Source of the DNA: Nemertoderma westbladi
Taxonomy: Eukaryota; Animalia; Xenacoelomorpha
Length of the DNA stretch: 64,000 bases
Direction: 5' to 3'
Assembly (NCBI GenBank): GCA_032718475.1
Contig: JAUCBJ010003790.1
Location: forward strand, 1-64,000
Shown here in pieces: positions 4,321 through 64,000 of the stretch. Below the pieces are notes generated by a model. The model was not told where the DNA came from. It searched no databases and saw only the letters and a list, made by a program, of their open reading frames with translations. Each line of letters starts with the position of its first letter. Position 1 is the stretch's first letter. Made by a program: the position numbers and the translations under genes.

Positions 4321-4389
4321 ATCGGTGAGACAGCAAGGGAGGCAACAAGTACTACCCGGCATCAGGTAATACGGTAGTACTAAGTGCCT

Positions 4390-33787: not shown

Positions 33788-35213
33788 CCCTGTTGAAAAT
33801 TCATAGTACATTTCCTAAGATTTGCAAGTTCCTTGCTATCAGTTTATTACACTTGTCAAAATATGTTTAGTAACAAAAATTTGGTAAACTTAATAGAGCA
33901 TGTAAGTTATTTCTTTAGTTTTAATAAATATTGCAAGTGTTACTTTGCTCTCTTATATTTTGCAGGTACTTGCCATGTTCCTGCAAAGTATTGCATATAT
34001 GCAGATGTAGGCTTACTGCAGTACTGTTAGTTGTTGGGCAAGCTTGTACTTGCCTGAGTCTAGGCATAACAATGTCACTGTATTACATACAACAGTTCAG
34101 TAGTTTCAGTGGGGCCTGCCAGTTGTCAGGTCTGAATGCAGCTATCCCAGGTAGCCCATGACGACCACGAAAGAAATTAAACGTTCATATTTGGTACTTT
34201 TTTCCTGCGAATCTGAATCCGAATCTGAATCTTTAATATAGGTAAAAAATGCTGACGTTGTAATTTAACGTCATAACTGGATCAAAATTGAATAAGAACC
34301 AAAACAAACGAATATTTAGCATTCCTATTACATTATTCAGTTTTGCGTTCATTTTTGGTGATTTAATGAGTGATTCCTCTGCTTACCAAAGCTGCTATGT
34401 TGGAAAGAAATAAGATAAGAAAATAATGAAGAAAGAAAGCCGAAAAATTTTGTTTTGTTTAAACCAAATACTATTAAATTATGTTGAGATAAAGCAGATA
34501 TATATGCGTTGGAATGTTCAAGCTATTAATATCGCAAGATAGATTTTTTTAATCGCAAAACATTATTTTTAAATTTTACAGTTTTCTTATGCTTCAATTG
34601 CTTTTGTGTATTATTTATATTTTTGAATAGATATAAAATGTCAAATGACCTATTACAAGGTCTTAACGTGAATAAATTGTCGTAGATTTATCAATATGAA
34701 TATTCTATTTAGTCTGAAAATAAGATAAATTATATTAATCTAACTAATCGTTTAAGAATATGTGGGGCATCACCAAAATATATCAAGGATACTCTCATAT
34801 CACTATGGATTAAATATTTTCATATATATTCTGCTGTTTCCTGTTCTAAATGTATAGGGTATTGTAGGTGTAGGCCTGTAGAATGTAGGGTGTAGGGATT
34901 AGGGATTGGATAAGGTACCCCCCCCCCCCCCCCCCCCCCTCCCATCTACACAGAACATGCACAGACAGTGCAGTGATTGGTCAGTCTCACGTTTGAGTTA
35001 TATATTATAATTTACAGTGATAAATTTATAATTACTTTCTATTTACATGACATACCGTTTACAATTACCAAGTGCCTAATTAAAACTTTACATTCATAGA
35101 AAGATTTGGCTTATTAAGTGATATACTTTACATATCTTGGCAAGTACTTGTTAAGAAGATAGCAAGTAGACTTTACAAGTACTTAGTATGTGTAGCAGGG
35201 ATTTTCAACAGGG
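33788..35213. mobile_element. Non-autonomous TIR DNA transposon (EnSpm/CACTA-like) nested in pol
   Basis: Perfect 13-bp TIR CCCTGTTGAAAAT...ATTTTCAACAGGG, imperfect ~100-bp subterminal inverted repeats and a 2-bp TSD AT. No transposase ORF. Superfamily inferred from the CCC ends and 2-bp TSD. Confidence 0.85.
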
Positions 35214-41200: not shown

Positions 41201-42479
41201 GTTCTTTCTGTTCGCGTTCTTTCTGTTCGCGTTCTTTCTGTTCGCGTTCAAGTTGGAGTTCGCGTTCAAGTTGGAGTTCGCGTTCAAGTTGGAGTTCGCG
41301 TTCCTTCTGTTCGCGTTCCGCTTGCTCACGCTTACCTTTCTCTTCCAACTCCCGCAACTTTGCGTCTAACTTACGTGTTCGCTCCCTTTCCCGCTCGGCT
41401 TCCTTCCGTGCTTCCGATGCACGCAAAACTTCTGCCTGTTGTTCGTCCAGTCGGCGTCTTCTCTCCTCCGCCGAGTTGTGAGAAACAAGGGATCTAGCAC
41501 ATATAACCTTCCCTCGCGCGTGACTAACCTGGGAATCGCCGCTGTCTCTGGATGCATCGTCGGGTGGAGTCAACGTCCTCTGTTGGATGTTCTCCGTCGT
41601 CGGTAGCACCTGACCTGGTACCACCACTCCATTCTGCATCAGCCAGCTAGTAACTTCCCTTTAATACCTGCGCTCCTCCTTGTCTTGGATCTCTTCTCGC
41701 TCCACTAACTCTCTCAACTCTGCGTCACTCACTTGAGTCGCCTGCGCTTGTGATGTCCATAGCAGCCAGTTCTCCGTCCTAACTCGTCGGAATCGCTCCG
41801 ATAACTCGCGGTGCTCTCACAAGGCTGCTAAAACCCTGTCGTAAATCCTCGTCGCTACGTCGCTCGACTGAGACTCTACTGCCTTCTTTGCTAGGACTGC
41901 AAGCTCCTCCGTCTGCTTGAATAACGCTGAGTTATATCCTCTTCTAATCTCTACTAACTCTACCCTCCCGATGTTCGCTGAGTCAGCTAACATTTTCCTT
42001 ACCTTGTCCGCCGTCCGGGTTATATGTCCGGCATGCGCGCGAAGTTTCTTCTTCATCGCAGTGTCGAACTCTCTATCACTTACCTGACTTACGCTCGGTG
42101 GACTTGAAGGATTATTTCGGGAACTACGGGTACTCCTTACAGCCGTCGGGACCACGGCACTTACCATACCCACAGGTCTGGAAACCGGGCTCCGGGCTCT
42201 CGCTTCTGCTACACTACCTTCCCTATCACTCACCTCTGTCCGGGCTGCCGTACAGTCCTTCCTATCAGTAGCGGTAGGGGATCCTAATACTATTACCTGA
42301 GGTTGTTGTTCTTCCTCACTAGTCACTGTCTCGTCCTCCTGTTCACTTACGTCAGCGTCGCTCGCTGCGTCGTCATAGTCGGCATTGTCGTCAACAGTAA
42401 TATTGACGCTATCGTCAGTCGGCGGTCCAGCCGCCGTCTCGTAGCTGTCCTCTAGTGCCTCTTTGTCTGAGACACTCAT
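35214..42479 (-). pseudogene. BEL/Pao gag-protease-RT-RNase H-integrase N-terminus polyprotein, broken by two in-frame stops
   Basis: Gag Cys/His knuckles (CWACLAPGHVRRQC, CMECGRLHHKLLH), protease MLDTAS, RT YLPHH..KVRVVND / DIEAMFHQV / FYMDD, RNase H LHLFSDAS / RAELQAA / FYWTDA / NPADITSRG, and IN HxxxHH. ORFs 41817-42479 and 35205-41639 share a frame, separated by TGA (41817-41819) and TAA (41661-41663). Confidence 0.93.
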
Positions 42480-43572
42480 AGTCTAATAATGTTTGCCTTC
42501 CGGCAAAATATCTCGCAAAGTTCGAGATATGATTATAATTTAACCGAAATACGGTCAAATTATTTGTCTAATAATCAGTTGGTCCAAAATGTCAAAATAA
42601 ATTCGCAATGCAATATTGTGAATTTAATGGGGTATATAGTTATAGCAAATACTAACACAATATTTAAACAAAAATATTATTATATAGCTACTATATAGCA
42701 TTAAATACCGGTATAGCACAAAATAACTCTGAATCTAATACAAAATATTCAAAATATACTTGCCACCCGAATATTTCTAATTTTATATATAGCTCTAATC
42801 AACGTAATTTTAGTTTCAAATATTATATGTATCCACTAGCGCGTGGCTACATCTTCGGGTTGCGACTCTCTCTAACTCTCTCTCTAACTTGAGCGATTCA
42901 AAACCATGGCCGGCTAAACCTAAATATCCTAACTAATAAATTGAGTTCAGCTTCGCAGTTAAACAACCGATAATTTTTTACTGCTTCCACAAACACACTG
43001 GTGCCAACAGAACAACTAACCTTGTTTGCTGTGAGATTCCACGTCCGCGTCCAAAGATTCAGTCCCTTCGCTGATTGCAAACCGAACCCGCAGACCCACA
43101 CGAACCCCAAACTCAGAAGTTCCGTCTTGCCATGTATCTCCAGATGGTATAAAATAACTAAACGGTTACCTAACATACCGGTACAAAACTCTAGAATTTT
43201 ACAAAATAATTTTGACCGAAACTGAATTCTCGCAAACCTAGCTAAAATTTTCAAAAAAAACTTACTAATTACAATTTGCCCTAAGGCCTAAGGAACTGCT
43301 GTATTCGCAATTAGCAAAACGCACTACCGTACATCCACTGTATGCAGTACAGTAAGTAAAACAGTACACCAACCTAACAGCCTAATGATACTGTATGTGG
43401 TACGGCAAAACAAATGTCCCTTCTACCGTACGCAGTAACAACAATCAGCCTAATGTACTACTGTACTATTGTACGCAGCCAGTGAATACAGTAATCTAAA
43501 CTAACAGCCTAAAAGAATATACTCAATGTTCTACTGTACGCTACAGCCTACAGCAAATAAAACATACCTTAC

Positions 43573-45825
43573 TGTTAAACAACCGCGACACCTATACTAA
43601 CAGCAGAACTGTTGGACAGACAAATACCCGTATACCTCTCTGCCAACGTAATGAGCTCTCGCCTAACCAATAAGACACAAAGACTGCTCTACTGTTAAGT
43701 AAAGGGGATCAGGAGTGTGCTATTACTGTATTACTAAATTGTAAGGGTTGCTAAATACAAAACCGCTACTTACCGTTGGATGGCGCTAATCTGCCGTCCG
43801 CTAATATATTTTACTAAATTTACACAGCTCCTGCAAAATCGCTTGTTCCTTTCTCTACCGATCGCTCGATAGAGAGCTAACTGTTCGAATCTATGAGCCA
43901 CGCGGGAATAACCAAAACAATAAACCCGAGTCGGCTCCCTAAGCTTACTTAAGACGAGTGCGAGGGGCTTTGCACTCAGAGTATATTCTTACGCCTAATT
44001 TTACTACTGAAATACGCTAATGCCTACGTCTTTTCTAATCGCGAATACTGGGGGTTCCCTAACGGAATGTGTGAATGCGAGAATATTTAAAATAATCAAA
44101 ATGGTACAGTACAATGTCTTTCGTAGGTGATACCGCTCTGGGTCTAAACTTGCCTGCAGCTGGCTTTAGGCCAGCAACTCACTAGTGTCTTGCGTACTGA
44201 CTATTGCGATCTAGTTTATTACCCGCTAATGCAAATAACCGCTTAGCACTTAGCGTGAATAGTTTACAGTACTCTAATTATTACCTTAGCTACTCTCCGC
44301 TATGCTGCGTACTAATTCTTAATTTTTACTAATCAATTACAGTCACAAATATGTAACAGCGTACTAATTACTAAGAGTTCCAGAATGCGTAATTCTAATT
44401 TATTACGCAACAGGTTTCGCTAGTAATAGCCTAAATTGCCGTATTACTTTGACCTAAGCAGTAGTTAATTGTTGTAACTAAGAAATAGAAATCAATCAAA
44501 AGGGAATGGGGCGCCTACCTAAGCATTCGTAATCATAGGCACACTTCAGTAACACACCAATCAGCGTCAGCAATCACAGATCACAATAGTACAACTTGCA
44601 ATTATACAATCTGCAATTATATAATTCGCAACATAATAATTCGCAATTGACTAATTCGCAATCTACTTACTCGCAACTTACTTACTGTAAGGTATGCAGG
44701 CCCCTCCCGGGTACATCTAGGCTTCCTAACTAACCCAATTCCTGCCCCCTAATACTAAATAGAGACAAAACCTGGATCATCAGCCCCCTAATTACTGTAC
44801 CAGCGAGCGGTCTCCAACCTACAGTCCAAATCGCCCGACCGCAACGTTGACCCCCCCCAGCGTTGCCCGCTTTTGAATCCTCCGCTCTCCCTAGTCGCTC
44901 AACCCCCCGATGTGCCCACCGCCCACTGGCACCTTAGCCCTTCATTATGCTAATAGCTACCGTAGCGGCGCATGCAAATCACAAAGTCTGACAGTCTCAG
45001 AAATCCCTTAGGATTATTGCGCAGAAAGGAATCACATAGAACCATTAATCAAAAGTAGAAATCATAGTTCAGTTGTAATTAGCAGCAATCGAAAGAATTA
45101 ATTGAGAAACACAATCGAGAGTAATCGCACTAGCAAATCATTCCAAGAAATTAATCAAAATTAGCAAATTGCAGAAAATACGCTAAAATATCCGTCAAAA
45201 ATTGAATAAGGACAGCTCAGCAAGTACAAAGATGATAGCAGATCATGTGAGGTGTCATGTGAGGCTCTACCAGCACACCGCCAATTTATAGGTGATCCGG
45301 ATGGGGTGATGCAATAGGGTGACTCAATCGCTTTCTTATTGGCTCTCCAGTCCGTGCTAGCACTAGACCAACCTGGAAGCAGCTAGTCCAATAAGGAGGC
45401 CGGATTGTAGCCCTATTTGCTCCCCTTCCTCGAATTATTACCATATATGGTAATGGTTCACGTCTCTGGCTGCTGAATGGCCAGGACAGCGTCCCTATAT
45501 GCTAGCCCTACTAAAGCTAATATCAGCAAGCACGGAATCCAGGGTCCGAATAAACTTACCCTGGAACTATCTACATATAACCTAATACAAAATTACGTAG
45601 GTAGGGCTACATACTATACAAAATGGATGGATTCAAATATATGGGTGTTTCGATTTCCCTATCTAAATACCACTGCGTTATTATGCCTTATCTAAAATAT
45701 CATGCTGCACAACGGACTAATATTACATACTGCATAACGGACTAATATTGCATACTGCATAACGGACTAATATTGCATACTGCATGATGACTAATATTAT
45801 GGATACAGCGCCATATACCGTAACA
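43573..45825 (-). repeat. 5' LTR (2253 bp)
   Basis: Direct repeat of 27778-30012 plus an 18-bp extra segment near 44705. Confidence 0.96.
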
Positions 45826-47880
45826 TCTTATCTAATAATCGTTTCTTCTCTAATAATTGTTTATTCTCTAATAATTGTTTATTCTCTAATAATAATTGTT
45901 TCTTCTCTAATAATTGTTTCTTCTCTAATAATAATTGTTTCTTCTCTAATAATTGTTTATTCTCTAATAATAATTGTTTCTTCTCTAATAATTGTTTATT
46001 ATCTAATAATTGTTTCTTATCTAATAATTGTTTCTTATCTAATAATTGTTTCTTCTCTAATAATTGTTTCTTCTCTAATAATTATTTCTTATCTAATAAT
46101 CGTTTCTTCTCTAATAATTGTTTATTCTCTAATAATTGTTTATTCTCTAATAATAATTGTTTCTTCTCTAATAATTGTTTCTTCTCTAATAATAATTGTT
46201 TATTCTATAATAATAATTGTTTCTTCTCTAATAATTGTTTATTCTCTAATAATAATTGTTTCTTCTCTAATAATTGTTTATTATCTAATAATAATTGTTT
46301 CTTCTCTAATAATTGTTTATTCTCTAATAATAATTGTTTCTTCTCTAATAATTGTTTATTCTCTAATAATAATTGTTTCTTCTCTAATAATAATTGTTTC
46401 TTCTCTAATAATTGTTTATTCTCTAATAATAATTGTTTCTTCTCTAATAATTGTTTCTTCTCTAATAATAATTGTTTCTTCTCTAATAATTGTTTATTCT
46501 CTAATAATAATTGTTTCTTCTCTAATAATTGTTTATTCTCTAATAATTGTTTATTCTCTAATAATTGTTTATTCTCTAATAATAATTGTTTCTTCTCTAA
46601 TAATTGTTTATTCTCTAATAATAATTGTTTCTTCTCTAATAATAATTGTTTCTTCTCTAATAATTGTTTATTCTCTAATAATAATTGTTTCTTCTCTAAT
46701 AATTGTTTATTCTCTAATAATTGTTTCTTATCTAATAATTGTTTCTTCTCTAATAATTGTTTCTTCTCTAATAATTATTTCTTATCTAATAATCGTTTCT
46801 TCTCTAATAATTGTTTATTCTCTAATAATTGTTTATTCTCTAATAATAATTGTTTCTTCTCTAATAATTGTTTCTTCTCTAATAATTGTTTCTTCTCTAA
46901 TAATAATTGTTTATTCTCTAATAATAATTGTTTCTTCTCTAATAATTGTTTATTCTCTAATAATAATTGTTTCTTCTCTAATAATTGTTTATTATCTAAT
47001 AATAATTGTTTCTTCTCTAATAATTGTTTCTTATCTAATAATCGTTTCTTCTCTAATAATTGTTTATTCTCTAATAATTGTTTATTCTCTAATAATAATT
47101 GTTTCTTCTCTAATAATTGTTTATTCTCTAATAATAATTGTTTCTTCTCTAATAATAATTGTTTATTCTCTAATAATAATTGTTTATTCTCTAATAATAA
47201 TTGTTTATTCTCTAATAATAATTGTTTCTTCTCTAATAATTGTTTATTATCTAATAATAATTGTTTCTTCTCTAATAATTGTTTATTCTCTAATAATAAT
47301 TGTTTCTTCTCTAATAATTGTTTCTTATCTAATATTTGTTTCTTCTCTAATAATTGTTTCTTCTCTAATAATTGTTTCTTCTCTAATAATTGTTTCTTCT
47401 CTAATAATTGTTTATTCTCTAATATTTGTTTCTTCTCTAATAATTGTTTCTTCTCTAATAATAATTGTTTCTTCTCTAATAATTATTTCTTATCTAATAA
47501 TCGTTTCTTCTCTAATAATTGTTTATTCTCTAATAATTGTTTATTCTCTAATAATAATTGTTTTTTCTCTAATAATTGTTTATTCTCTAATAATAATTGT
47601 TTATTCTCTAATAATAATTGTTTCTTCTCTAATAATTGTTTATTCTCTAATAATAATTGTTTCTTCTCTAATAATTGTTTATTCTCTAATAATTGTTTAT
47701 TCTCTAATAATAATTGTTTCTTCTCTAATAATTGTTTCTTCTCTAATAATTGTTTATTCTCTAATAATAATTGTTTCTTCTCTAATAATTGTTTCTTCTC
47801 TAATAATTGTTTCTTCTCTAATAATAATTGTTTCTTCTCTAATATTTGTTTATTCTCTAATTATTATTGTTTCTTCTATT
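45826..47880 (+). repeat. 18/21-bp AT-rich minisatellite, right part
   Basis: Same unit as 22850-27777, continuing in register after the TSD. Confidence 0.97.
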
Positions 47881-48296: not shown

Positions 48297-50478
48297 GGCA
48301 TTGTGCCTGGCACTGGTTGTAGAACTGATCACCCAACCCAGTACCGGTCCACGGCATAGTGCCTGGCACAGGTTGTACAAAGGTTAACCCAGTACCGGTC
48401 CACGGCATAGTGCCTGGCACAGGTTGTACTGAGGTTAACCCTTGTACAACCGGTGCCACGGCACTATGCCGTGGACCGGTACTGGGTTAACCTTTGTACA
48501 ACCAGTGCCAGGCACTATGCCGTGGACCGGTACTGGGTGTAACAGTTCTACAACCTGTGCCAGGCACTACGCCGTGGACCGGTACTGGGTGATCAGTTGT
48601 ACAACCTGTGCCAGGCACTATGCCGTGGACCGGTACTGGGTGATCAGTTCTACAACCAGTGCCAGGCACTATGCCGTGGACCGGTACTGGGTTAACCTTT
48701 GTACAACCTGTGCCAGGAACTATGCCGTGGACCGGTACTGGGTTGGGTGATCAGTTCTACAACCAGTGCCAGGCACTATGCCGTGGACCGGTACTGGGTT
48801 AACCTTTGTACAACCTGTGCCAGGCACTATGCCGTGGACCGGTACTGGGTTAACCTTTGTACAACCTGTGCCAGGAACTATGCCGTGGACCGGTACTGGG
48901 TTGGGTGATCAGTTCTACAACCAGTGCCAGGCACTATGCCGTGGACCGGTACTGGGTTAACCTTTGTACAACCTGTGCCAGGCACTATGCCGTGGACCGG
49001 TACTGGGTTAACCTTTGTACAACCTGTGCCAGGCACTATGCCGTGGACCGGTACTGGGTTGGGTGATCAGTTCTACAACCAGTGCCAGGCACTATGCCGT
49101 GGACCGGTACTGGGTTAACCTTTGTACAACCTGTGCCAGGCACTATGCCGTGGACCGGTACTGGGTTAACCTTTGTACAACCTGTGCCAGGCACTATGCC
49201 GTGGACCGGTACTGGGTTAACCTTTGTACAACCTGTGCCAGGCACTATGCCGTGGACCGGTACTGGGTTAACCTTTGTACAACCTGTGCCAGGCACTATG
49301 CCGCGGACCGGTACTGGGTGATCAGTTCTACAACCAGTGCCAGGCACTATGCCGTGGACCGGTACTGGGTTAACCTTTGTACAACCTGTGCCAGGCACTA
49401 TGCCGTGGACCGGTACTGGGTTAACCTTTGTACAACCTGTGCCAGGCACTATGCCGTGGACCGGTACTGGGTTAACCTTTGTACAACCTGTGCCAGGCAC
49501 TATGCCGTGGACCGGTACTGGGTTAACCTTTGTACAACCTGTGCCAGGCACTATGCCGTGGACCGGTACTGGGTTAACCTTTGTACAACCTGTGCCAGGC
49601 ACTATGCCGTGGACCGGTACTGGGTTAACCTTTGCTACAACCAGTGCCAGGCACTATGCCGTGGACCGGTACTGGGTTAACCTTTGTACAACCTGTGCCA
49701 GGCACTATGCCGTGGACCGGTACTGGGTTAACCTTTGTACAACCAGTGCCAGGCACTATGCCGTGGACCGGTACTGGGTTAACCTTTGTACAACCTGTGC
49801 CAGGCACTATGCCGTGGACCGGTACTGGGTGATCAGTTCTACAACCAGTACCAGGCACTATGCCGTGGACCGGTACTGGGTTAACCTTTGTACAACCTGT
49901 GCCAGGAACTATGCCGTGGACCGGTGTTGGGTTAACCTTTGTACAACCTGTGCCAGGCAATATGCCGTGGACCGGTACTGGGTTAACCTTTGTACAACCT
50001 GTGCCAGGCACTATGCCGTGGACCGGTACTGGGTGATCAGTTCTACAACCAGTGCCAGGCACTATGCCGTGGACCGGTACTGGGTGATCAGTTCTACAAC
50101 CTGTGCCAGGCACTATGCCGTGGACCGGTACTGGGTTAACCTTTGTACAACCAGTGCCAGGCACTATGCCGTGGACCGGTACTGGGTTAACCTTTGTACA
50201 ACCAGTGCCAGGCACTATGCCGTGGACCGGTACTGGGTTAACCTTTGTACAACCTGTGCCAGGCACTATGCCGTGGACCGGTACTGGGTGATCAGTTCTA
50301 CAACCAGTGCCAGGCACTATGCCGTGGACCGGTACTGGGTTAACCTTTGTACAACCAGTGCCAGGCACTATGCCGTGGACCGGTACTGGGTTAACCTTTG
50401 TACAACCTGTGTCAGGCACTAGGCCGTGGACCGGTACTGGGTTAACCTTTGTACAACCTGTGCCAGGCACTAGGCCGT
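48297..50478. repeat. 51-bp tandem array with an inverted left arm (foldback-like)
   Basis: About 40 copies of GCCAGGCACTATGCCGTGGACCGGTACTGGGTTAACCTTTGTACAACCTGT at 48442-50478, and about 2.7 reverse-complement copies at 48297-48441. Confidence 0.95.
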
Positions 50479-50777: not shown

Positions 50778-50909
50778 TTAAGCTAAATAGACGTAAACTT
50801 TACGATCAGATGAACTTCGGGCCAAGTATTCGCGCTCTATAAGAGATTCAATTCGTTTTTTTATGTTTTGTGGACTTGGTGGGAACCGAGTTCGAAGTTG
50901 TTCAACAAC
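50778..50909 (-). CDS. CUL3: Cullin-3, last coding exon
   Basis: ttctcacag|[43 protein letters not shown], the cullin WH-B C-terminus; 132 bp, phase 0. Confidence 0.93.
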
Positions 50910-51051
50910 CTGTGAGAAATAATAAAAATTACAAAATAATTGGATGTACAGGACATTCGGTAGGGCTATCAGCTATTTATTACTACCGATCTATACGGAA
51001 CGGACAATAAAGCGAGATGTAGTCACTTAGTCTGTTACTATGGTAACCAAC

Positions 51052-51263
51052 CTCTGATATTAACTGGTTGTTATTCAACTCCCTTCGACTCTTCATGATA
51101 CGAACTATAGCCGCTTCTATCTCGTGTTTGCGGTCCTCGTCAACTTTCGCTTTGGTTTCCTTACGTTCCGGTTCAGACTCTCCTTTAGCTGCTAAGCCGA
51201 CGACCTTCACTCGCATCAGTTTAGATGTGTATGAGTCATTAACAGAGAACAAGTGATCTTTAG
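51052..51263 (-). CDS. CUL3: Cullin-3 exon with the neddylation-site motif
   Basis: tttacag|(A)[70 protein letters not shown]|gttggt. IVRIMKSR motif present; phase 1 start matches the previous exon. The acceptor actually used is inferred. Confidence 0.9.
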
Positions 51264-54200
51264 CTGTAAATATAGATGTGTGTGAGTCATTAACAGAGAA
51301 CAAGTGATCTTTAGCTGTAAATATAGATGTGTATGAGTTATTAACAGAGAACAAGTGATCTTTAGCTGTAAATATAGATGTGTGTGAGTTATTAACAGAG
51401 AACTAGTGATCTTTAGCTGTAAATATAGATGTGTGTGAGTTATTAACAGAGAACAAGTGATCTTTAGCTGTAAATATAGATGTATGTGAGTCATTAACAG
51501 AGAACAAGTGATCTTTAGCTGTAAATATAGATGTGTGTGAGTCATTAACAGAGAACAAGTGATCTTTAGCTGTAAATATAGATGTGTGTGAGTTATTAAC
51601 AGAGAACAAGTGATCTTTAGCTGTAAATATAGATGTGTGTGAGTCATTAACAGAGAACAAGTGATCTTTAGCTGTAAATATAGATGTGTGTGAGTCATTA
51701 ACAGAGAACAAGTGATCTTTAGCTGTAAATATAGATGTGTGTGAGTCATTAACAGAGAACAAGTGATCTTTAGCTGTAAATATACATGTGTGTGAGTCAT
51801 TAACAGAGAACAAGTGATCTTTAGCTGTAAATATAGATGTGTGTGAGTCATTAACAGAGAACAAGTGATCTTTAGCTGTAAATATAGATGTGTGTGAGTC
51901 ATTAACAGAGAACAAGTGATCTTTAGCTGTAAATATAGATGTGTGTGAGTTATTAACAGAGAACAAGTGATCTTTAGCTGTAAATATAGATGTGTGTGAG
52001 TCATTAACAGAGAACAAGTGATCTTTAGCTGTAAATATAGATGTGTGTGAGTTATTAACAGAGAACAAGTGATCTTTAGCTGTAAATATAGATGTGTGTG
52101 AGTCATTAACAGAGAACAAGTGATCTTTAGCTGTAAATATAGATGTGTGTGAGTCATTAACAGAGAACAAGTGATCTTTAGCTGTAAATATAGATGTGTG
52201 TGAGTTATTAACAGAGAACAAGTGATCTTTAGCTGTAAATATAGATGTGTGTGAGTTATTAACAGAGAACAAGTGATCTTTAGCTGTAAATATAGATGTG
52301 TGTGAGTCATTAACAGAGAACAAGTGATCTTTAGCTGTAAATATAGATGTGTGTGAGTCATTAACAGAGAACAAGTGATCTTTAGCTGTAAATATAGATG
52401 TGTGTGAGTCATTAACAGAGAACAAGTGATCTTTAGCTGTAAATATAGATGTGTGTGAGTTATTAACAGAGAACAAGTGATCTTTAGCTGTAAATATAGA
52501 TGTGTGTGAGTTATTAACAGAGAACAAGTGATCTTTAGCTGTAAATATAGATGTGTGTGAGTCATTAACAGAGAACAAGTGATCTTTAGCTGTAAATATA
52601 GATGTGTGTGAGTCATTAACAGAGAACAAGTGATCTTTAGCTGTAAATATAGATGTGTGTGAGTTATTAACAGAGAACAAGTGATCTTTAGCTGTAAATA
52701 TAGATGTGTGTGAGTCATTAACAGAGAACAAGTGATCTTTAGCTGTAAATATAGATGTGTGTGAGTCATTAACAGAGAACAAGTGATCTTTAGCTGTAAA
52801 TATAGATGTGTGTGAGTCATTAACAGAGAACAAGTGATCTTTAGCTGTAAATATAGATGTGTGTGAGTCATTAACAGAGAACAAGTGATCTTTAGCTGTA
52901 AATATAGATGTGTGTGAGTCATTAACAGAGAACAAGTGATCTTTAGCTGTAAATATAGATGTGTGTGAGTCATTAACAGAGAACAAGTGATCTTTAGCTG
53001 TAAATATAGATGTGTGTGAGTCATTAACAGAGAACAAGTGATCTTTAGCTGTAAATATAGATGTGTGTGAGTCATTAACAGAGAACAAGTGATCTTTAGC
53101 TGTAAATATAGATGTGTGTGAGTCATTAACAGAGAACAAGTGATCTTTAGCTGTAAATATAGATGTGTGTATGAGTCATTAACAGAGAACAAGTGATCTT
53201 TAGCTGTAAATATAGATGTGTGTGAGTCATTAACAGAGAACAAGTGATCTTTAGCTGTAAATATAGATGTGTGTGAGTCATTAACAGAGAACAAGTGATC
53301 TTTAGCTGTAAATATAGATGTGTGTATGAGTCATTAACAGAGAACAATTGATCTTTAGCTGTAAATAAAGATGTGTGTGAGTCATTAACAGAGAACAAGT
53401 GATCTTTAGCTGTAAATATAGATGTGTATGAGTCATTAAGAGAGAACAAGTGATCTTTAGCTGTAAATATAGATGTGTGTGAGTCATTAACAGAGAACAA
53501 GTGATCTTTAGCTGTAAATATAGATGTATGTGAGTCATTAACAGAGAACAAGTGATCTTTAGCTGTAAATATAGATGTGTGTGAGTCATTAACAGAGAAC
53601 AAGTGATCTTTAGCTGTAAATATAGATGTGTGTGAGTCATTAACAGAGAACAAGTGATCATTAGCTGTAAATATAGATGTGTGTGAGTCATTAACAGAGA
53701 ACAAGTGATCATTAGCTGTAAATATAGATGTGTGTGAGTCATTAACAGAGAACAAGTGATCTTTAGCTGTAAATATAGATGTGTGTGAGTCATTAACAGA
53801 GAACAAGTGATCTTTAGCTGTAAATATAGATGTGTGTGAGTCATTAACAGAGAACAAGTGATCTTTAGCTGTAAATATAGATGTGTGTATGAGTCATTAA
53901 CAGAGAACAATTGATCTTTAGCTGTAAATATAGATGTGTGTGAGTCATTAACAGAGAACAAGTGATCTTTAGCTGTAAATATAGATGTGTATGAGTCATT
54001 AAGAGAGAACAAGTGATCTTTAGCTGTAAATATAGATGTGTGTGAGTCATTAACAGAGAACAAGTGATCTTTAGCTGTAAATATAGATGTATGTGAGTCA
54101 TTAACAGAGAACAAGTGATCTTTAGCTGTAAATATAGATGTGTGTGAGTCATTAACAGAGAACAAGTGATCTTTAGCTGTAAATATAGATGTGTGTGAGT

Positions 54201-54395
54201 CATTAACAGAGAACAAGTGATCTTTAGCTGTAAATATAGATGTGTGTGAGTCATTAACAGAGAACAAGTGATCTTTAGCTGTAAATATACATGTGTGTGA
54301 GTCATTAACAGAGAACAAGTGATCTTTAGCTGTAAATATAGATGTGTGTGAGTCATTAACAGAGAACAAGTGATCTTTAGCTGTAAATATAAATG
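51224..54395 (-). repeat. 51-bp array = CUL3 3' splice site + exon start, about 62 copies
   Basis: - strand unit acatctatatttacag|CTAAAGATCACTTGTTCTCTGTTAATGACTCACAC. Confidence 0.95.
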
Positions 54396-54937
54396 TTAGT
54401 TTATGTTTGTTTGTTTGATACTTGGTACATCTGCGAGCTAAGCTGTACCAAGGCATCTGGCGTCTCTGTTTTAGACGATCGCCCTCACTCCTCACACAAT
54501 TTTACCTCTCGGACTTTGTTGTCCCTTCCTCTCTCGCCAGTCCCTTAGGACTCATCCTCCTCTCCGCTAGCTCCCCACACTCGGACCTCGCACCCTTTAC
54601 TTTTCTCCCTTAGCTCTAGCACCTTCTCCCCACGCTCCCCTGATACTCAACCCCTCGACTCATGCTCTCTAAGTTCTTTTGGTTGGGTTCCCACGGTCTC
54701 ATACAAGTATACGTTGTATATAATAAGTGAGTCCCTCGTCTTATCCTCCTGTTCCAGTCAATTAGGTCCCAGTCCCAGTAGCTAATTGGAAAAGGTTACA
54801 TCTGACTATAGTACGTATTTTATATATTATATATTCGTCCACACGACGTGTCTTAACCCCCCGCCCCTTTCGGAAGCGATATGACTCGCCTCTCCCCGTC
54901 TCACCCCCCACTTGAGTGAATCCGCAAGTCGCGCAGC

Positions 54938-55420
54938 CTATTCCTCTCGGAACTTGTTCCACTCCATCGCCTTGTGGTACGTGAGTCCCATCGACTGACC
55001 CATCGCCACGGCTCCGTATTGTCCCGTGTTATCCACCAATCCTAATCCATCAGGTTTCGTCATAGCCATGTAGACTACCTGCATGTCCAGAAGATTCGTA
55101 GTGTCAGGTCCAATAATCCTCTCTGCGTCGCCGCGTATCGCCGTTCCAATATCGATCGTAGTCTTTGACCTTACCAGCTTCTGCATCGCATCCGGTAGGC
55201 GGTTCAACTTTGGCCCGGTCTTCTTACCCTAGGTCGCTAGGTCAAACAGAAAAATATCTCCATTCACTGCCACTAAATGCACCAATATAGTCCTACTCGA
55301 CCCTCCTGACCCCTTTCTTGTCCCACCATCATCCTCTTCTGTCTCCACGTCATCCGGGACCCACGATATCCACGGAATCCGATAAACTCCTTCATAGTTT
55401 CTCCGCCATCACGATTCTCC
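54938..55420 (-). pseudogene. Decayed DEDDy (WRN/EXD-like) 3'-5' exonuclease-like sequence
   Basis: TILVHLVAVNGDIFLFDLAT*...LPDAMQKLVRSKTTIDIGTAIRGDAERI...NLLDMQVVY resembles the WRN-exo pattern LLQLA...YLFDL...LP..LK.LL.....KVG..I..D..KL...DL. In-frame stops are present. Confidence 0.5.
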
Positions 55421-55814
55421 TCTCTCACCAGACTGGTAGTGCCTTAGAAAGGCTCAGTAGGGCAAGAGATAACTAAGTATGGTCTTAATTTGTTTAAATC
55501 AGTGATGGCCTACCTCCTATCTGCGTTCTGTCAGTGTTTCGTGCCTCTATGTGCCAATTTACCCCTGATTCTTCAGTGCTGTGTTCACTCCCCAACCTCA
55601 ACTGACGTGCTATTACTCTATCTACTACTCAATTACCATGTAAGTAATTCATCACTACTTGTCTACAGAGAAGACTAGCTATAATTTCTTCCTCTTGTAG
55701 TAGCTTCCTACCAGATAACCTTCAGGCTCTGTAGCAATGTTCTAACTCCGCACTACGGGTTATACGCTACAGTAGTCTAGTTTGTCCGGCCTACACAGTC
55801 TATCCTACCACGCC

Positions 55815-57220
55815 TACATATCCCCCTCAACTCCTCACGTGGCGCCCTCAGTGCCCACAAGTTTACGGTACTATATATCCCTCTACTACGGTATGCATAC
55901 ATACCCCCCCCCCCCCCCTCAACTCCTCACGTGGCGCCCTCATTGCCCACAAGTTTACGGTACTATGTACCCCTCTACTACGGTATGCGTACATACCCAC
56001 CCTCAACTCCTCACGTGGCGCCCTCAGTGCCCACAAGTTTACGGTACTATGTATCCCTCTACTACGGTATGCGTACATACCCCCCCCCCCCCCCTCAACT
56101 CCTCACGTGGCGCCCTCAGTGCCCACAAGTTTACGGTACTATGTATCCCTCTACTACGGTATGCGTACATACCCCCCTCAACTCCTCACGTGGCGCCCTC
56201 AGTGCCCACAAGTTTACGGTACTATGTATCCCTCTACTACGGTATGCATACATACCCCCCCCCCTCAACTCCTCACGTGGCGCCCTCAGTGCCCACAAGT
56301 TTACGGTACTATGTACCCCTCTACTACGGTATGCGTACATACCCCCCTCAACTCCTCACGTGGCGCCCTCAGTGCCCACAAGTTTACGGTACTATGAACC
56401 CCTCTACTACGGTATGCATACATACCCCCCCCCCCCCTCAACTCCTCACGTGGCGCCCTCAGTGCCCACAAGTTTACGGTACTATGTATCCCTCTACTAC
56501 GGTATGCGTACATACCCCCCCTCAACTCACGTGGCGCCCTCAGTGCCCACAAGTTTACGGTACTATGTACCCTTCTACTACGGTATGCGTACATACCCCC
56601 CCTCAACTCCTCACGTGGCGCCCTCAGTGCCCACAAGTTTACGGTACTATGTATCCCTCTACTACGGTATGCGTACATACCCCCCCTCAACTCACGTGGC
56701 GCCCTCAGTGCCCACAAGTTTACGGTACTATGTATCCCTCTACTACGGTATGCGTACATACCCCCCCTCAACTCACGTGGCGCCCTCAGTGCCCACAAGT
56801 TTACGGTACTATGTACCCTTCTACTACGGTATGCGTACAATACCCCCCCTCAACTCCGCACGTGGCGCCCTCAGTGCCCACAAGTTTACGGTACTATGTA
56901 TCCCTCTACTACGGTATGCGTACATACCCCCCCTCAACTCACGTGGCGCCCTCAGTGCCCACAAGTTTACGGTACTATGTATCCCTCTACTACGGTATGC
57001 GTACATACCCCACCCCCCCACAGCTCCTCATGTGGCGCCCTCAGTGCCCACAAGTTTACGGTTCTATGTACCCCTATACTACGGTATGCGTACATATCCC
57101 CCCTCAACTCCTCACGTGGCGCCCTCAGTGCCCACAAGTTTACGGTACTATGTACCCCTCTACTACGGTATGCGTACATACCCCCCCTCAACTCCTCACG
57201 TGGCGCCCTCAGTGCCCACA
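55815..57220 (+). repeat. ~80-86-bp tandem array with a variable poly-C tract, about 17 copies
   Basis: Unit (C)nTCAACTCCTCACGTGGCGCCCTCAGTGCCCACAAGTTTACGGTACTATGTATCCCTCTACTACGGTATGCGTACATA. Confidence 0.95.
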
Positions 57221-57465
57221 GTAGTGCGTATGTAAATTAGGTACGCTGCTACATTTTTGTACCCGTCCAACGTACGTAATTGCAACTACCTACACCTATG
57301 TATTATGTACGTTGGTACGTCTGTACCCATCAGACGTACATAATGCCTACCTACAGCGTACCTTGGTACTAATGTTTTACTTATTTTATTTTTTTATTTT
57401 GTTTAGTATGTGGGAAGGGCGTCTCGCCCTCATTCCCACCCCCATCAGTCCAATATATTGGACGA

Positions 57466-58512
57466 CTTCATCGGCAGCGAGTTTTCTCTAAACTTACCGA
57501 TCTCTGTTCCCTTCATCGGCAGCGAAGTTTTCTCTAAACTTACCGATCTCTGTTCCCTTCATCGGCAGCGAGTTTTCTCTAAACTTACCGATCTCTGTTC
57601 CCTTCATCGGCAGCGAAGTTTTCTCTAAACTTACCGATCTCTGTTCCCTTCATCGGCAGTGAGTTTTCTCTAAACTTACCGATCTCTGTTCCCTTCATCG
57701 GCAGTGAGTTTTCTCTAAACTTACCGATCTCTGTTCCCTTCATCGGCAGTGAGTTTTCTCTAAACTTACCGATCTCTGTTCCCTTCATCGGCAGCGAGTT
57801 TTCTCTAAACTTACCGATCTCTGTTCCCTTCATCGGCAGTGAGTTTTCTCTAAACTTACCGATCTCTGTTCCCTTCATCGGCAGTGAGTTTTCTCTAAAC
57901 TTACCGATCTCTGTTCCCTTAATCGGCAGCGAGTTTTCTCTAAACTTACCGATCTCTGTTCCCTTCATCGGCAGCGAAGTTTTCTCTAAACTTACCGATC
58001 TCTGTTCCCTTCATCGGCAGCGAATTTTCTCTAAACTTACCGATCTCTGTTCCCTTCATCGGCAGCGAATTTTCTCTAAACTTACCGATCTCTGTTCCCT
58101 TCATCGGCAGCGAATTTTCTCTAAACTTACCGATCTCTGTTCCCTTCATCGGCAGTGAGTTTTCTCTAAACTTACCGATCTCTGTTCCCTTAATCGGCAG
58201 CGAGTTTTCTCTAAACTTACCGATCTCTGTCCCCTTCATCGGCAGTGAGTTTTCTCTAAACTTACCGATCTCTGTTCCCTTCATCGGCAGCGAATTTTCT
58301 CTAAACTTACCGATCTCTGTTCCCTTCATCGGCAGTGAGTTTTCTCTAAACTTACCGATCTCTGTCCCCTTCATCGGCAGTGAGTTTTCTCTAAACTTAC
58401 CGATCTCTGTCCCCTTCATCGGCAGTGAGTTTTCTCTAAACTTACCGATCTCTGTCCCCTTCATCGGCAGTGAGTTTTCTCTAAACTTACCGATCTCTGT
58501 CCCCTTCACCGG
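57466..58512 (-). repeat. 45-bp array = CUL3 exon end + 5' splice site, about 23 copies
   Basis: - strand unit ATGAAGGGAACAGAGATCG|gtaagtttagagaaaactcactgccg. Confidence 0.95.
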
Positions 58513-58707
58513 AAGTTTATTCAATATTTTTTGCTGCGGTTTCGCTAAACTCAAACTAAGAAGTGCCCGTTGTAAATCGTTTTCAGGGATGTCTGTTTCC
58601 TGTTGAATTTCCTCGAAGGTCCAACTTTCTCGTTTGTTAAACAACATTAGGATACACATTTGGTAGGTAGAAACCACCAGTATGTGATATTTAATTGTTC
58701 CATCGTC
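58491..58707 (-). CDS. CUL3: Cullin-3 exon
   Basis: tttag|[72 protein letters not shown]+G|gtaagt; 217 bp, ends in phase 1. Confidence 0.92.
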
Positions 58708-58770
58708 CTAAATATAAAAATAAATAAAATAAAATAAACAGGGGAAATTAAACTTACCTTAAACAGTGGC

Positions 58771-60648
58771 TGTTAATTTACAGGAGCTAATAAACCAACA
58801 GGTTGACGCCATCAATGATGCTGACGACAGCAGGCAATCATCCCAGGCATGGAAATCGATCAATCTGCTTACTGGGCGGAAAAGCCAACCAACCACCAAG
58901 GTTAAGGCTGAATCACCAGCCGATCGCCTCAATGGTTGGAAAGCCCACTTTGAAAAGCTCCTCAATAATGACAGGGTATTGCCTGATAACTTTATAGAAG
59001 TAAAAGTGTCTGAGTCTGTACTCCCAGATATTCCCATTGGCGATATCTCCTTTGCAGAAGTGAAGGCTGCTGCAAAGAGCATTAAGACCAATCGTGCCAG
59101 TGGAGTAGATGGTGTTCCCCCTGAGGTCTTTAAAATACCTGAGTGTTTAAAGCTCATCTATCCCATCATAGTAGACATGTACCGAACAACAAGAGTCCCA
59201 CAAGAAATGAAAACAAATAAGTTGGTGCCAGTTCCCAAGAAAGGCAACCTAACACTCTATGGTTCTTTTCGGGGAATCTCATTGATCTCGATTGCTGCAA
59301 AGCTATACAATAGAATTCTATTAAATCGCATCAGGGATCCCATTGAGAGACTGCTCCGTGGAAATCAGAATGGGTTCCGTAAAGGTCGTGGGACCATGGA
59401 GCCCATTTTGGCACTTAGAAGGATAATTGAAGAGTTATCAAAAAAGAAAGACAGGCATCTGGCTGTTATCTTTGTTGACTTCTTCAAGGCCTTTGATTCA
59501 GTCTCTCGCTCACGTATGTTCAGCATACTTTCATTATATGGGATTCCTGATGAAATTATTGCAGCAATCAGATCAGTATACGATGGTTCGACAACATTTG
59601 TGTCTACTGTTGACGGTGACACAGAACCATTTGAAGTGTTATGGGGCGTCCTCCAGGGAGACACACTTGCCCCAAATCCTGTTCATAATTGTTGTTGACT
59701 ATGTTCTACGCATGTCCTTAGATCATCATAATGATGATGGGGTGATGATAACTCCACCTACTGGCTCCAGAAGTCGAGGAAATCCTGCCAAGTACCTAAC
59801 TGATCTAGAATTTGCTGATGACTTAGAAGTACTCTCAGAATCACTAGAGGGAGCCCAAAGGCTCCTTAGCTCATTAGAACATGCTGCTTCTAGTGTTGGT
59901 CTTTTTATTAACTCCAGAAAGACCAAAATTATGACAGTTAACTTTGAAAGTCCTCAGCAAGTCTTTGATCGGATGAGCATAAGCTCAAAAGATGGTATGC
60001 TTGAGCATGTGGACGACTTCTGTTACCTGGGATCATGGATCCGGAAGTCAGGTGAGGACCTTCGAATACGTAAGGGAAAGGCATGGGCAGCCTTGAATAG
60101 GCTTTCCAGGATTTGGAAGTCACTGAGAATTAATCGGACACTTAAGGTCCGATTATTTAGAGCAGCAGTAGTTCCAGTACTCCTCTATGGGAGTCCATGC
60201 TGGGCTCTAACTGCTGAGGACACCAAATCTCTGGATGGCACATTCACAAGAATGCTACGCCGGGTTCATTGTGTCAAGTACAATGCACACATCTCCAACC
60301 AGACACTATATAACATTGGAGGTGTCCCATTGGTTCCCCCAAGCTTGACACTAGAACAAAATCGCCTCCGCTTTACAGGACATTGCTTTCGCCGTGAGGA
60401 CCAGCCAGTGCATAATCTTGTACTTTGGCAGCCTCATGGAGAGAATAAGCATGGTGGACAGCCCATGGCTTTCTTGAGACGCATCTTAAAGGACACTGGC
60501 CTTAAAGAAGCAGATGATCTAGCAAATGTCATGGGTGATAGGGAGTTGTGGCGGTGCAATTTTGTCGACAAGCCGGCACAGCATTCTTAAAAATGCAGCT
60601 GCAATGCAGCATGCCGATCCTAGTAGTAGTAGTAGTAGTAGTAGTAGT
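58771..60648 (+). mobile_element. 5'-truncated non-LTR retrotransposon (RTE-like RT), frameshifted
   Basis: RT motifs VPVPKKGNL..FRGISL, QNGFRKGR, FVDFFKAFDSV, GVLQGDTLAP, LEFADD, FCYLGS. Frameshift near 59672 and a (TAG)n 3' tail at 60621-60648. Antisense to CUL3. Confidence 0.92.
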
Positions 60649-60764
60649 AAACTTACAATAAACAGCGGTCCATTAAACTTACAATAAACAGCGGTCCATT
60701 ACACTTACAATAAACAGTGGTCCATTAAACTTACAATAAACAGAGGTCCATTAAACTTACAATA
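60649..60764 (-). repeat. 26-bp donor-derived repeat (further copies at 61050-61086 and 58748-58770)
   Basis: - strand unit ATGGACCGCTGTTTA(AG/TT)GTAAGTTT(A), matching the exon junction TTTAAG|GTAAGTTT at 61103. Confidence 0.75.
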
Positions 60765-61049
60765 ATGAAATTAGCACAAATATATTAGATTCGATAGATA
60801 TTAGGAAACGGCAAATTCATATTTATGTTTTATAAAAGTTTGCAACCGTAAATTAATATGCTAAGGTTTTATTATAAAAATTACGTAAGTAGGGCTACAT
60901 ACTGTATAAAATCGGTTGAATATAAATGAACTTGTATATTTTCTATTTACCCTATCTAATTATTACGGTTGCACATCAATACGCACTTATCTATCTTATT
61001 TTATACTGTATAACGGGATGTTTCAGACACAACGCCATATATCGCAACA
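60765..61049 (-). mobile_element. Truncated, diverged LTR fragment related to the BEL element's LTR
   Basis: AAAATTACGTAAGTAGGGCTACATACT...CCCTATCTAA...GACACAACGCCATATATCGCAACA aligns by eye with LTR 29776-30012 (...GATACAGCGCCATATACCGTAACA). Left boundary approximate. Confidence 0.75.
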
Positions 61050-61102
61050 CAGCGGTCCAATAAACTTACCTTAAACAGCGGTCCATCGGTCCGCAAACTT
61101 AC

Positions 61103-61312
61103 CTTAAAGAAGTAAGCTTTTAGGTCTGCATTACCCATGTGCTGTTGTAGAGTGAGCTGTCTACCGTTGTGTTTATTGAGATAGAAGACTTTGAACCTTG
61201 AGTATGCGTCCTGCGCCACCGATGGTAGGTTCCCGGAATTAGTAACTGTATGAGTTGGCCAGAAACCAGTGGTGAGCACCTTCACGTTCAAATCTAGCCC
61301 GTGCATGTTCGT
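61103..61312 (-). CDS. CUL3: Cullin-3 exon
   Basis: tttag|TNMHGLDLNVKVLTTGFWPT...FYLNKHNGRQLTLQQHMGNADLKAYFFK|gtaagt; 210 bp, phase 0/0. Confidence 0.93.
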
Positions 61313-62291: not shown

Positions 62292-62399
62292 ATTAGAAGT
62301 TGCGATGCTTTCTTTAAATTCTTCATTAGTTGAGGTAGAAACAGTCATATCTCGAAACATTCCTTCCAGTCTACTAGTGAACTGACAACCGCATTCAGT
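62292..62399 (-). CDS. CUL3: Cullin-3 exon
   Basis: tttag|TECGCQFTSRLEGMFRDMTVSTSTNEEFKESIATSN|gtaagt; 108 bp; TECGCQFTS is characteristic of CUL3. Confidence 0.93.
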
Positions 62400-62464
62400 C
62401 TAAATATTACAATTATTAATATTTACTAAAATTAAATATATGTAATATAGTTATAAACTATCCA

Positions 62465-64000
62465 ACCTTTAATTTAGTTACATATTTTTCTCACTAACCT
62501 TTAGTTTAGTTAACATATTATTTTTCTCACCAACCTTTAGTTTAGATACATATTTTTCTCACTAACATATTATTTTTCTCACTAACCTTTAGTTTAGTTA
62601 CATATTTTTCTCACTCACCTTTAGTTTAGTTACATATTTGTCACACTAACATTTAGTTTAGTTAACATATTATTTTTCTCACTAACCATTAGTTTAGTTA
62701 CATATTTTTCTCACTCCCCTTTAGTTTAGTTACATATTTTTCTCATTAACCTTTAGTTTAGTTAACATATTAATTTTCTCACTCACCTTTAGTTTAGTTA
62801 CATATTTTTCTCACTAACCTTTAGTTTAGTTACATATTTTTCTCACTCAGCTGTAGTTTAGTTACATATATTTCTCATTAACCTTTAGTTTAGTTAACAT
62901 ATTATTTTTCTCACTAACCATTAGTTTAGTTACATATTTTTCTCACTCACCTTGAGTTTAGTTACATATTTTTCTCACTAAAATTTAGTTTAGTTAACAT
63001 ATTATTTTTCTCACAACCTTTAGTTTAGTTACATATTTTTCTCACTCACCTTTAGTTTAGTTACATATTTTTCTCACTCAGCTGTAGTTTAGTTACATAT
63101 TTTTCTCATTAACCTTTAGTTTAGTTAACATATTATTTTTCTCACTAACCATTAGTTTAGTTACATATTTTTCTCACTCACCTTGAGTTTAGTTACATAT
63201 TTTTCTCACTAAAATTTAGTTTAGTTAACATATTATTTTTCTCACTCACCTTTAGTTTAGATACATATTTTTCTCACTCACCTTTAGTTTAGTTAACATG
63301 TTTTTCTCACTCACCTTTAGTTTAGTTACATATTTTTCTCACTCACCTTTAGTTTAGTTACATATTTTTCTCACCAACCTTTAGTTTAGTTACATATTTT
63401 TCTCACTCACCTTTAGTTTAGTTAACATGTTTTTCTCACTCACCTTTAGTTTAGTTACATATTTTTCTCACTCACCTTTAGTTTAGTTACATATTTTTCT
63501 CACTAACCTTTAGTTTAGTTAACATATTATTTTTCTCACTTACCTTTAGTTTAGTTACATATTTTTCTCACTCACCTTTAGTTTAGTTACATATTTTTCT
63601 CACTAACCTTTAGTTTAGTTAACATATTATTTTTCTCACGAACCTTTAATTTAGTTACATATTTTTCTCATTCACCTTTAGTTTAGTTAACATATTATTT
63701 TTCTCACTAACCATTAGTTTAGTTACATATTTTTCTCACTCACCTTTAGTTTGGTTAACATATTATTTTTCTCACGAACCTTTAATTTAGTTACATATTT
63801 TTCTCACTCACCTTTAGTTTAGTTAACATATTATTTTTCTCACTAACCATTAGTTTAGTTATATATTTTTCTCACTCCCCTTTAGTTTAGTTACATATTT
63901 TTCTCACTAACCTTTAGTTTAGTTAACATATTATTTTTCTCACTAACCTTTAGTTTAGTTACATATTTTTCTCACTAAAATTTAGTTTAGTTAACATATT
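62465..64000 (-). repeat. 32-36-bp array = upstream CUL3 exon end + 5' splice site, about 45 copies, running off the window
   Basis: The best-preserved - strand units read AGT GAG AAA AAC ATG TTA ACT AAA CTA AAG|gtgagt = SEKNMLTKLK + donor, the expected residues before TECGCQ. Confidence 0.88.

What the first reader, a model, noticed from the sequence alone, without database searches (positions are those of the whole stretch)
51224..54400. About 62 near-identical 3' splice sites in a row; only the last three can give intact protein
Seen: every unit has a branch-like CTCAC, then TATATTTACAG and the first 35 nt of the exon. The native CTAAC branch point precedes only the first (most 5') copy at about 54395-54400. 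Units are 17 codons long. Acceptors at 51263, 51314 and 51365 give +0, +17 and +34 aa. A TAG at 51403-51405 and 53-bp units (about 53170, 53325, 53888) make all earlier acceptors non-productive. Short similarity (ACATTTATA in the intron, ACATCTAAA in the exon) marks the duplication ends. Inference: the spliceosome must skip about 59 decoys, implying strong exon definition, stepwise re-splicing, or a large NMD-degraded fraction that could tune CUL3 dose by copy number.
Basis: partly seen in the sequence, partly recalled or inferred. Interest (0 to 1): 0.85.

Follow-up and report, generated by a model that had tools for sequence, protein, structure and literature searches.

The report
Splice-acceptor "mirage" repeat in CUL3 intron
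The border between an intron and the next exon of an animal's cullin-3 gene is repeated 62 times in a row, yet the spliced transcripts assembled from two studies join at the last copy, so this is likely a harmless example of a repeat type already known from lancelet and human genes; its one extra twist is that the other end of the same intron is repeated too.

Summary
The array is real: 62 acceptor copies (51-nt unit, 98% match) on the minus strand end a 7,227-nt intron of a cullin-3 gene. Frame claims hold; "every unit has CTCAC" is 55 of 61. The finding omits that the same intron starts with 23 copies of its own donor, and that two more donor arrays lie upstream. Two runs that behave as RNA, from two studies, join donor 1 (58491) directly to acceptor 62 (51263), and none of their contigs enters either array. 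Contigs drop rare forms, so minor leakage is not excluded. No AG|GT ratchet exists, and the in-frame TAG fits chance (~20%). This matches lancelet "mirages" and the human F7/CBS junction minisatellites (PMC3087553, PMC3902484, PMC1557585): slippage seeds a repeat across a splice border and the exon-nearest copy wins. The scan found the same thing many times on other DNA of this genome, often larger. Dose tuning by NMD is unsupported. Open twist: with both intron ends amplified, inside-out nested splicing is possible but untested. Interest 0.22.

The parts
51222..54396 (-). 51-nt tandem array of the intron end plus exon start: 62 acceptor copies (first exon base 54380 to 51263)
54395..54399 (-). 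likely ancestral branch point CTAAC, now 3.1 kb upstream of the acceptor that is used, before copy 1 only
   Evidence: sequence; function inferred
51282..51286 (-). CTCAC (A at -20), exon-derived, candidate replacement branch point of the used acceptor; TTAAT (A at -27) is a second candidate
   Evidence: use inferred, no lariat data
51403..51405 (-). single in-frame TAG in unit 59
51052..51263 (-). CUL3 exon (212 nt) entered at acceptor 62, the one used
   Evidence: contigs of X3 and X4; Pfam Cullin_Nedd8
50910..51051 (-). last intron, 142 nt, GT-AG, skipped in X3 and X4
50778..50909 (-). last coding exon with stop; poly(A) tail seen at 50571 in X3
51264..58490 (-). host intron, 7,227 nt, phase 1; 5,564 nt of it tandem repeat
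57466..58512 (-). 45-nt tandem array of the upstream exon end plus donor: 23 donor copies (GT at 58490 to 57497; three 46-nt units)
58491..58707 (-). CUL3 exon (217 nt) left at donor 1, the one used
61103..61312 (-). CUL3 exon (210 nt); its donor has 7 degenerate extra copies at 61069, 60760-60656 and 58757, split by a reverse-transcriptase element
   Evidence: junction to the next exon not seen in reads
62292..62399 (-). CUL3 exon (108 nt, begins TECGCQF)
   Evidence: predicted
62464..64000 (-). fourth junction array: at least 23 donor-like copies of the end of an exon outside the window (best copies translate EKNMLTKLK; 72 of 107 homologs read EKNMISKLK before TECG); runs off the window

Best explanation
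A 51-nt piece spanning the intron end and exon start of CUL3 stands in 62 tandem copies, likely seeded by replication slippage between two near-identical 7-mers and expanded as a neutral minisatellite, and the spliceosome joins the upstream exon to the last copy, likely because that copy lies nearest the next donor (exon definition) rather than because it is stronger. Shown: the array, its microhomology ends, the sister donor array, and the donor 1 to acceptor 62 junction in contigs of two studies. Inferred: slippage and unequal exchange as the origin; choice by position (acceptor 62 gives a 212-nt exon, copy 1 would give 3,329 nt); use of an exon-derived CTCAC or TTAAT as a new branch point, because the ancestral CTAAC stayed with copy 1; neutrality. 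Some leak to the nearest decoys (+17, +34 aa), as in human CBS and IFI6, is allowed.
For: One 845-nt contig of X3 (depth 2991.5) covers 58707-58487, then 51264-51048, then 50905-50571 and a poly(A) tail with no extra unit; X4 (304 nt, depth 692.6) shows the same junction. All RNA-like records laid are listed (X3 1 of 1 in each call; X4 3 of 3 and 5 of 5) and none reaches 51285-51300 or 58435-58482. The product is colinear with orthologs: 108 of 109 homologs have no insertion at the junction. The 16 nt before the AG are alike in used and unused copies, and the copy with the best branch point is ignored. The exon copy keeps TAC (Tyr; Phe in 109 of 109 homologs) where most units read CAC, so the array drifts while the exon is held. 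Repeats fill 51.6% of the window. Lancelet mirages and F7 behave alike.
Against: Contigs drop rare variants and cannot measure minor or NMD-degraded forms; the first 32 exon bases are shared by most units, so the contig path alone does not phase the copy (the argument rests on the absence of loop contigs). X3 and X4 are not on record as RNA; this is read from intron skipping and the poly(A) tail. The next donor is the gene's weakest (6 of 9 consensus bases), which makes exon definition less obvious. Both arrays of this intron have 3n units with an open frame (17 and 15 codons), a 1-in-9 coincidence that could reflect selection against harmful leak. The same final mRNA would come from nested splicing.
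Confidence: 0.8

Rival explanations
1. Inside-out nested splicing: an inner donor copy is joined to an inner acceptor copy first, the outer sites survive, and further rounds end in the same donor 1 to acceptor 62 junction. The two arrays would then act as a self-correcting set of nested introns.
For: Sequence allows it: 1,342 of 1,426 donor-acceptor pairs (22 x 61) leave both outer sites intact. The final mRNA is identical, so cannot exclude it. Nested or intrasplicing is described for DMD intron 7 and EPB41 (passages of PMC4394429).
Against: No contig of X3 or X4 shows an inner-donor junction, though intermediates are rare in poly(A) RNA. In F7 minigenes only the most upstream donor is picked (PMC1557585 abstract, introduction, discussion). 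One-sided arrays elsewhere in this genome reportedly splice normally without a facing array (unchecked). The exon junction complex represses re-splicing (search listing only, PMC8234774).
Confidence: 0.07
2. One reading: a sizeable share of transcripts uses upstream acceptors, meets the TAG or a frameshift and is removed by NMD, so copy number tunes CUL3 level.
For: 59 of 62 acceptors give a premature stop; the single TAG lies three units from the exon; NMD substrates would be scarce in steady-state RNA.
Against: No array-containing contig at junction depths of 2991.5 and 692.6, although X4 kept unrelated side branches at depth 21-74 (short loops may still be pruned). The nearest decoys (60, 61), the likeliest to leak, escape NMD, yet are not seen either. 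A stop arises by chance with about 20%. If choice is by position, adding far copies changes little.
Confidence: 0.06
3. Acceptors 61 and 60 (and donors 2-12) give functional in-frame isoforms with 15- or 17-residue inserts near human CUL3 residue 654.
For: 36 of 1,426 pairs stay in frame; human CBS and IFI6 use the two nearest pseudo-sites (PMC1557585 introduction).
Against: Not seen in contigs; the segment length is fixed in 108 of 109 homologs, and the one exception looks like an unspliced intron read through.
Confidence: 0.05
4. The array is an assembly artefact.
For: Tandem arrays are often mis-assembled; X1 may be the source of the assembly.
Against: Depth ratio 63.7 in X1; X2, another sample and study, holds 51-nt and 53-nt units and the donor array with the same end; unit variants are patterned along the array.
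Confidence: 0.02

Closest known systems
Amphioxus 'mirage' minisatellites (globin BflGb6 and BflGb9, Adh3; PMC3087553, six passages and reference list read; PGBD5 and troponin C, PMC3902484, four passages)
   Same: Tandem unit spans an intron-exon border, including the acceptor side (BflGb6: 3' end of intron plus 5' part of exon 2); unit size in the 10-160 bp range; normal splicing kept; concerted evolution with odd edge copies.
   Different: 62 copies against 2-7 in the globin and PGBD5 cases read; both ends of one intron are amplified here; four junction arrays in half a gene. The Adh3 primary paper could not be read, so whether it has two-ended introns is unknown to me.
Human F7 intron 7 37-bp VNTR, with IFI6 (6-16), CBS intron 13, LMNB2 and PDGF arrays (PMC1557585: abstract, introduction, discussion read)
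   Same: Identical splice sites repeated into the intron; the exon-nearest one is used; 5-25 copies. The 23-copy donor array of this intron is the same type.
   Different: Those are donor arrays, explained by 5'-to-3' scanning. For acceptors the winner here is the LAST copy, the opposite of first-AG scanning, and it has lost its ancestral branch point.
Recursive splicing (AG|GT ratchet points) and intrasplicing / nested introns (PMC4394429, four passages)
   Same: Many splice signals inside one intron; nested geometry is present in the sequence.
   Different: No AG|GT ratchet here; no intermediate seen; known nested cases use unrelated sites in much longer introns.

Membership tests
mirage (junction-spanning minisatellite) | head-to-tail unit that contains an exon-intron border with its splice signal | tested here: met
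   35 nt exon, 7 nt shared, 9 nt intron, AG intact in 62 of 62
mirage (junction-spanning minisatellite) | regular mRNA is still made from the exon-adjacent copy | tested here: met
   contigs of X3 and X4 (major form only)
mirage (junction-spanning minisatellite) | copy number varies between haplotypes or individuals | tested here: inconclusive
   X2 holds the array but summed contig depth is no copy number
mirage (junction-spanning minisatellite) | somatic length instability (reported for Adh3) | not testable with these tools
   needs single-molecule data
F7-type donor VNTR | first monomer spans an exon-intron (donor) border | tested here: not met
   the finding's array is acceptor-side; met by the sister array 57466-58512
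recursive splicing | AG|GT ratchet point regenerating a donor | tested here: not met
   62 of 62 read AG|CT; best internal GT 4 of 9 consensus bases
intrasplicing / nested introns | inner donor and acceptor whose use spares the outer sites | tested here: met
   1,342 of 1,426 pairs, by sequence only
intrasplicing / nested introns | inner-spliced intermediates or lariats exist | not testable with these tools
   only assembled contigs were available
regulated unproductive splicing (AS-NMD) | stop-bearing isoform is made and rises on NMD block | not testable with these tools
   no such contig, but contigs cannot show absence
cullin-3 | Cullin and Cullin_Nedd8 domains, best hits to CUL3 | tested here: met
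   Pfam above cut-offs; CUL3 structures E 2e-20 against 5e-6 for CUL4; named hits among the 120 listed that name a paralog are cullin-3

The most novel reading that the evidence does not exclude
Because both ends of one intron are amplified (23 donors facing 62 acceptors), the intron is removed inside-out in several rounds, so that most wrong pairings repair themselves; more broadly, this genome may seed satellites preferentially at splice borders (3 of the 10 arrays over 400 bp in this window are junction-derived), making it a natural library for testing how position alone picks a 3' splice site and a new branch point.
Probability: 0.08. Interest if true: 0.7.

Novelty: new member of a known kind. 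Interest (0 to 1): 0.22.

Why it matters
As it stands it is a tidy natural experiment: 62 near-identical acceptors, of which the one without the ancestral branch point wins, argue that position relative to the next donor outweighs signal strength and first-AG scanning in this animal. That agrees with known mirages and adds little by itself, and larger cases were already noted in the same genome. It would matter more if nascent-RNA data showed nested removal, or if a genome-wide count showed that satellites are born preferentially at splice borders. In practice such arrays can mislead gene annotation.

Tried and rejected
No whole genome is held, so no genome-wide count, paralog check or splice-site model could be made. 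No raw reads, so no isoform shares. The junction between exons 61312-61103 and 58707-58491 was not shown. Pairing between donor and acceptor arrays: duplex -37.3 and -38.3 kcal/mol, reached by 56 of 500 and 33 of 500 shuffles, not significant. Structure masking of decoys: three acceptor units fold more weakly than shuffles (269 of 300 as stable or more); the used AG looked more open in one window setting, but over 7 settings the gap was mostly small, absent or reversed; rejected. Ratchet splicing rejected. Intron gain from the repeat rejected as unlikely: the middle of the intron is unrelated sequence, and homolog P0048 has a 40-residue read-through at exactly this junction that looks like an unspliced phase-1 intron, suggesting an old intron position (one case, inferred). 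Rough enrichment sum: 0.145 junction arrays expected among 10, P(2 or more) 0.01, but the window was picked for this feature, so it is no test. The Adh3 mirage paper is not held. Paper searches listed no case of both ends of one intron amplified; most subscription papers and all supplements were unseen (BflGb6 alignments are in supplements I did not open). No structure prediction was run.

Full report
Observation. On the minus strand, 51222-54396 is a tandem array of period 51 with 62.1 copies and 98% matches. A motif count finds 62 acceptors, first exon base 54380 down to 51263; 58 of the 61 complete units are 51 nt and 3 are 53 nt. Each unit is 35 nt of exon start, 7 nt shared, and the last 9 nt of the intron; the ends lie in the near-match ACATTTA (intron) / ACATCTA (exon). 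CTAAC precedes only copy 1. CTCAC occurs in 55 of 61 units, CTCAT in 6, so 'every unit' is slightly overstated. With the true donor, only acceptors 62, 61 and 60 reach the natural stop (+0, +17, +34 aa); the TAG at 51405-51403 and the 53-nt units spoil the other 59. DNA run X1 has one 81-nt loop contig at depth 552.7 against 8.67 on unique sequence (63.7 times), which fits 62 copies, but X1 may be the assembly's source; X2, from another sample and study, holds 51-nt and 53-nt units too.

Host gene and surroundings. Exons 61312-61103, 58707-58491, 51263-51052 and 50909-50778 give one open frame of 256 aa plus stop. It is cullin-3: Pfam Cullin and Cullin_Nedd8 above cut-off, CUL3 structures at E 2e-20 against 5e-6 for CUL4, and invertebrate CUL3 as named hits at 65-75% over the one exon searched (best 120 of 824 listed). 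The junction falls near human residue 654 (extrapolated). The finding left out that the same 7,227-nt intron opens with 23 copies of its own donor (45-nt unit, 57466-58512), with the same kind of microhomology at its ends. The previous intron carries 7 degenerate copies of its donor, split by a reverse-transcriptase element, and 62464-64000 is a fourth array made from the end of a CUL3 exon outside the window. Tandem repeats cover 33,010 of 64,000 bases.

Transcript evidence. Eight runs were listed, all as assembled contigs and none on record as RNA; five were laid. X3 and X4 skip the 142-nt GT-AG intron and X3 ends in a poly(A) tail, so they behave as RNA. One 845-nt X3 contig (depth 2991.5) runs from the exon 58707-58491 directly into 51263 and on to the tail; its loose ends carry the real exon's unique sequence on the donor side and the terminal TCATA variant on the acceptor side. 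X4 (another study; same sample as DNA-like X2) shows the same junction at depth 692.6. All X3 and X4 records laid are listed, and none covers 51285-51300 or 58435-58482. Limits: contigs drop rare forms; the first 32 exon bases are common to most units, so the path alone does not phase the copy and the argument rests on the missing loop; NMD substrates are depleted at steady state. X4 did keep unrelated side branches at depth 21-74, which suggests that a frequent alternative would have shown, but short loops can be pruned, so this is no bound.

How it likely works. Origin (inferred): slippage between two near-identical 7-mers 51 nt apart duplicated the border; unequal exchange expanded and homogenised it (37 of 61 units identical; variants come in runs). 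Such a duplication always leaves one intact exon at the inner end and pushes spare copies into the intron, so it is tolerated if the exon-nearest site wins. Choice (junction shown, cause inferred): the copies are alike in their last 16 nt, and copy 1, with the best branch point, is ignored, so strength does not explain the choice; first-AG scanning would predict copy 1; predicted RNA structure gives no robust difference. Position does: acceptor 62 makes a 212-nt exon, copy 1 would make 3,329 nt. The used acceptor must branch at exon-derived sequence (CTCAC, A at -20, or TTAAT, A at -27), unless it uses a branch point behind 61 other AGs. Signs of neutrality: the exon copy keeps Tyr (Phe in 109 of 109 homologs) where most units would give His; at least one stop among 8-10 substitution types is expected about 20% of the time. 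Against: both arrays have 3n, stop-free units (1 in 9 by chance), the TAG sits close to the exon, and the downstream donor is the gene's weakest (6 of 9).

Rivals. Ratchet splicing fails: all acceptors read AG|CT. NMD dose tuning is untested but has no support. In-frame isoforms are possible at low level, as for CBS and IFI6, but 108 of 109 homologs have no insertion here; the exception, P0048, looks like an unspliced intron at the same position. The one reading special to this locus is nested, inside-out removal: 1,342 of 1,426 pairs spare both outer sites and end in the same mRNA. Nothing here shows it, and the two arrays do not pair more than shuffles do (56 and 33 of 500).

Comparison with what is known. 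Lancelet 'mirages' are tandem duplications of exon-intron borders, on either side, that leave splicing intact; BflGb6 is acceptor-side with 3 or 6 units (PMC3087553, passages; PMC3902484, passages). Human F7, IFI6, CBS, LMNB2 and PDGF have donor-side arrays of 5-25 copies in which the nearest one to three sites are used (PMC1557585, abstract, introduction and discussion). Repeats at exon-intron borders can also create introns (PMC2812944, passages); PMC10078293 (passages) covers repeats that shift splicing in people but gave no like case. The finding meets the two testable defining features of a mirage. It differs in copy number and in having both ends of one intron amplified; six searches listed no two-ended case, but the Adh3 paper was not held and no supplements were read. 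The term 'mirage' and two of the papers came from earlier notes of this scan, which describe many such arrays elsewhere in this genome, some with hundreds of acceptors (unchecked AI notes, not independent support).

Verdict. Real, correctly described, and a new member of a known kind. The regulatory reading is not supported. Interest 0.22; the nested-splicing or border-seeding case has probability about 0.08 and would deserve 0.7.

Noticed in passing
window 57466-58512 (-): 23 tandem copies of the donor of the same intron; donors 1-12 stay in frame (+15 aa each), then a 46-nt unit shifts the frame; contigs use donor 1.
   Followed up: yes
window 62464-64000 (-): Array of 32-35 nt units made from the end of an upstream CUL3 exon plus donor; runs off the window.
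   Followed up: partly
window 58757-61102 (-): Older, degenerate donor array (7 extra copies) interrupted by a (TAG)n run and a reverse-transcriptase element on the + strand (58763-60590, RVT_1 in two frames); one donor-like copy lies 50 nt before the next acceptor.
   Followed up: partly
window 61103 / 58707 junction: The modelled protein lacks the 15-50 residue flexible loop that many CUL3 homologs have here: either a real deletion or a small exon missed in this intron; the junction was not seen in contigs.
   Followed up: no
window 27774-45825: Bel/Pao LTR retrotransposon on the - strand (Peptidase_A17, DUF1759, DUF5641) between 2,259-bp direct repeats 98.4% alike, sitting inside an 18-bp satellite (22841-27776 and 45826-47877).
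   Followed up: partly
window 733-1425 (-) and 21867-22631 (+): Single long ORFs for a p24/EMP24 protein and a TMEM55 (PIP4P) protein.
   Followed up: no
window 7422-20099: 12.7-kb array of an 88-bp unit (144 copies); also 53-bp (4359-7072), 51-bp with a strand switch near 48430 (48297-50478) and 84-bp (55815-57220) arrays with no exon border recognised.
   Followed up: no
protein P0048: Unnamed CUL3 homolog with a 40-residue, intron-like read-through at exactly the junction studied, hinting at an old phase-1 intron position.
   Followed up: partly
window 50778: X2, X3 and X4 differ from the window at the last base of the stop codon (TAA in the window, TAG in those runs) and at 50808: ordinary allelic differences.
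   Followed up: no
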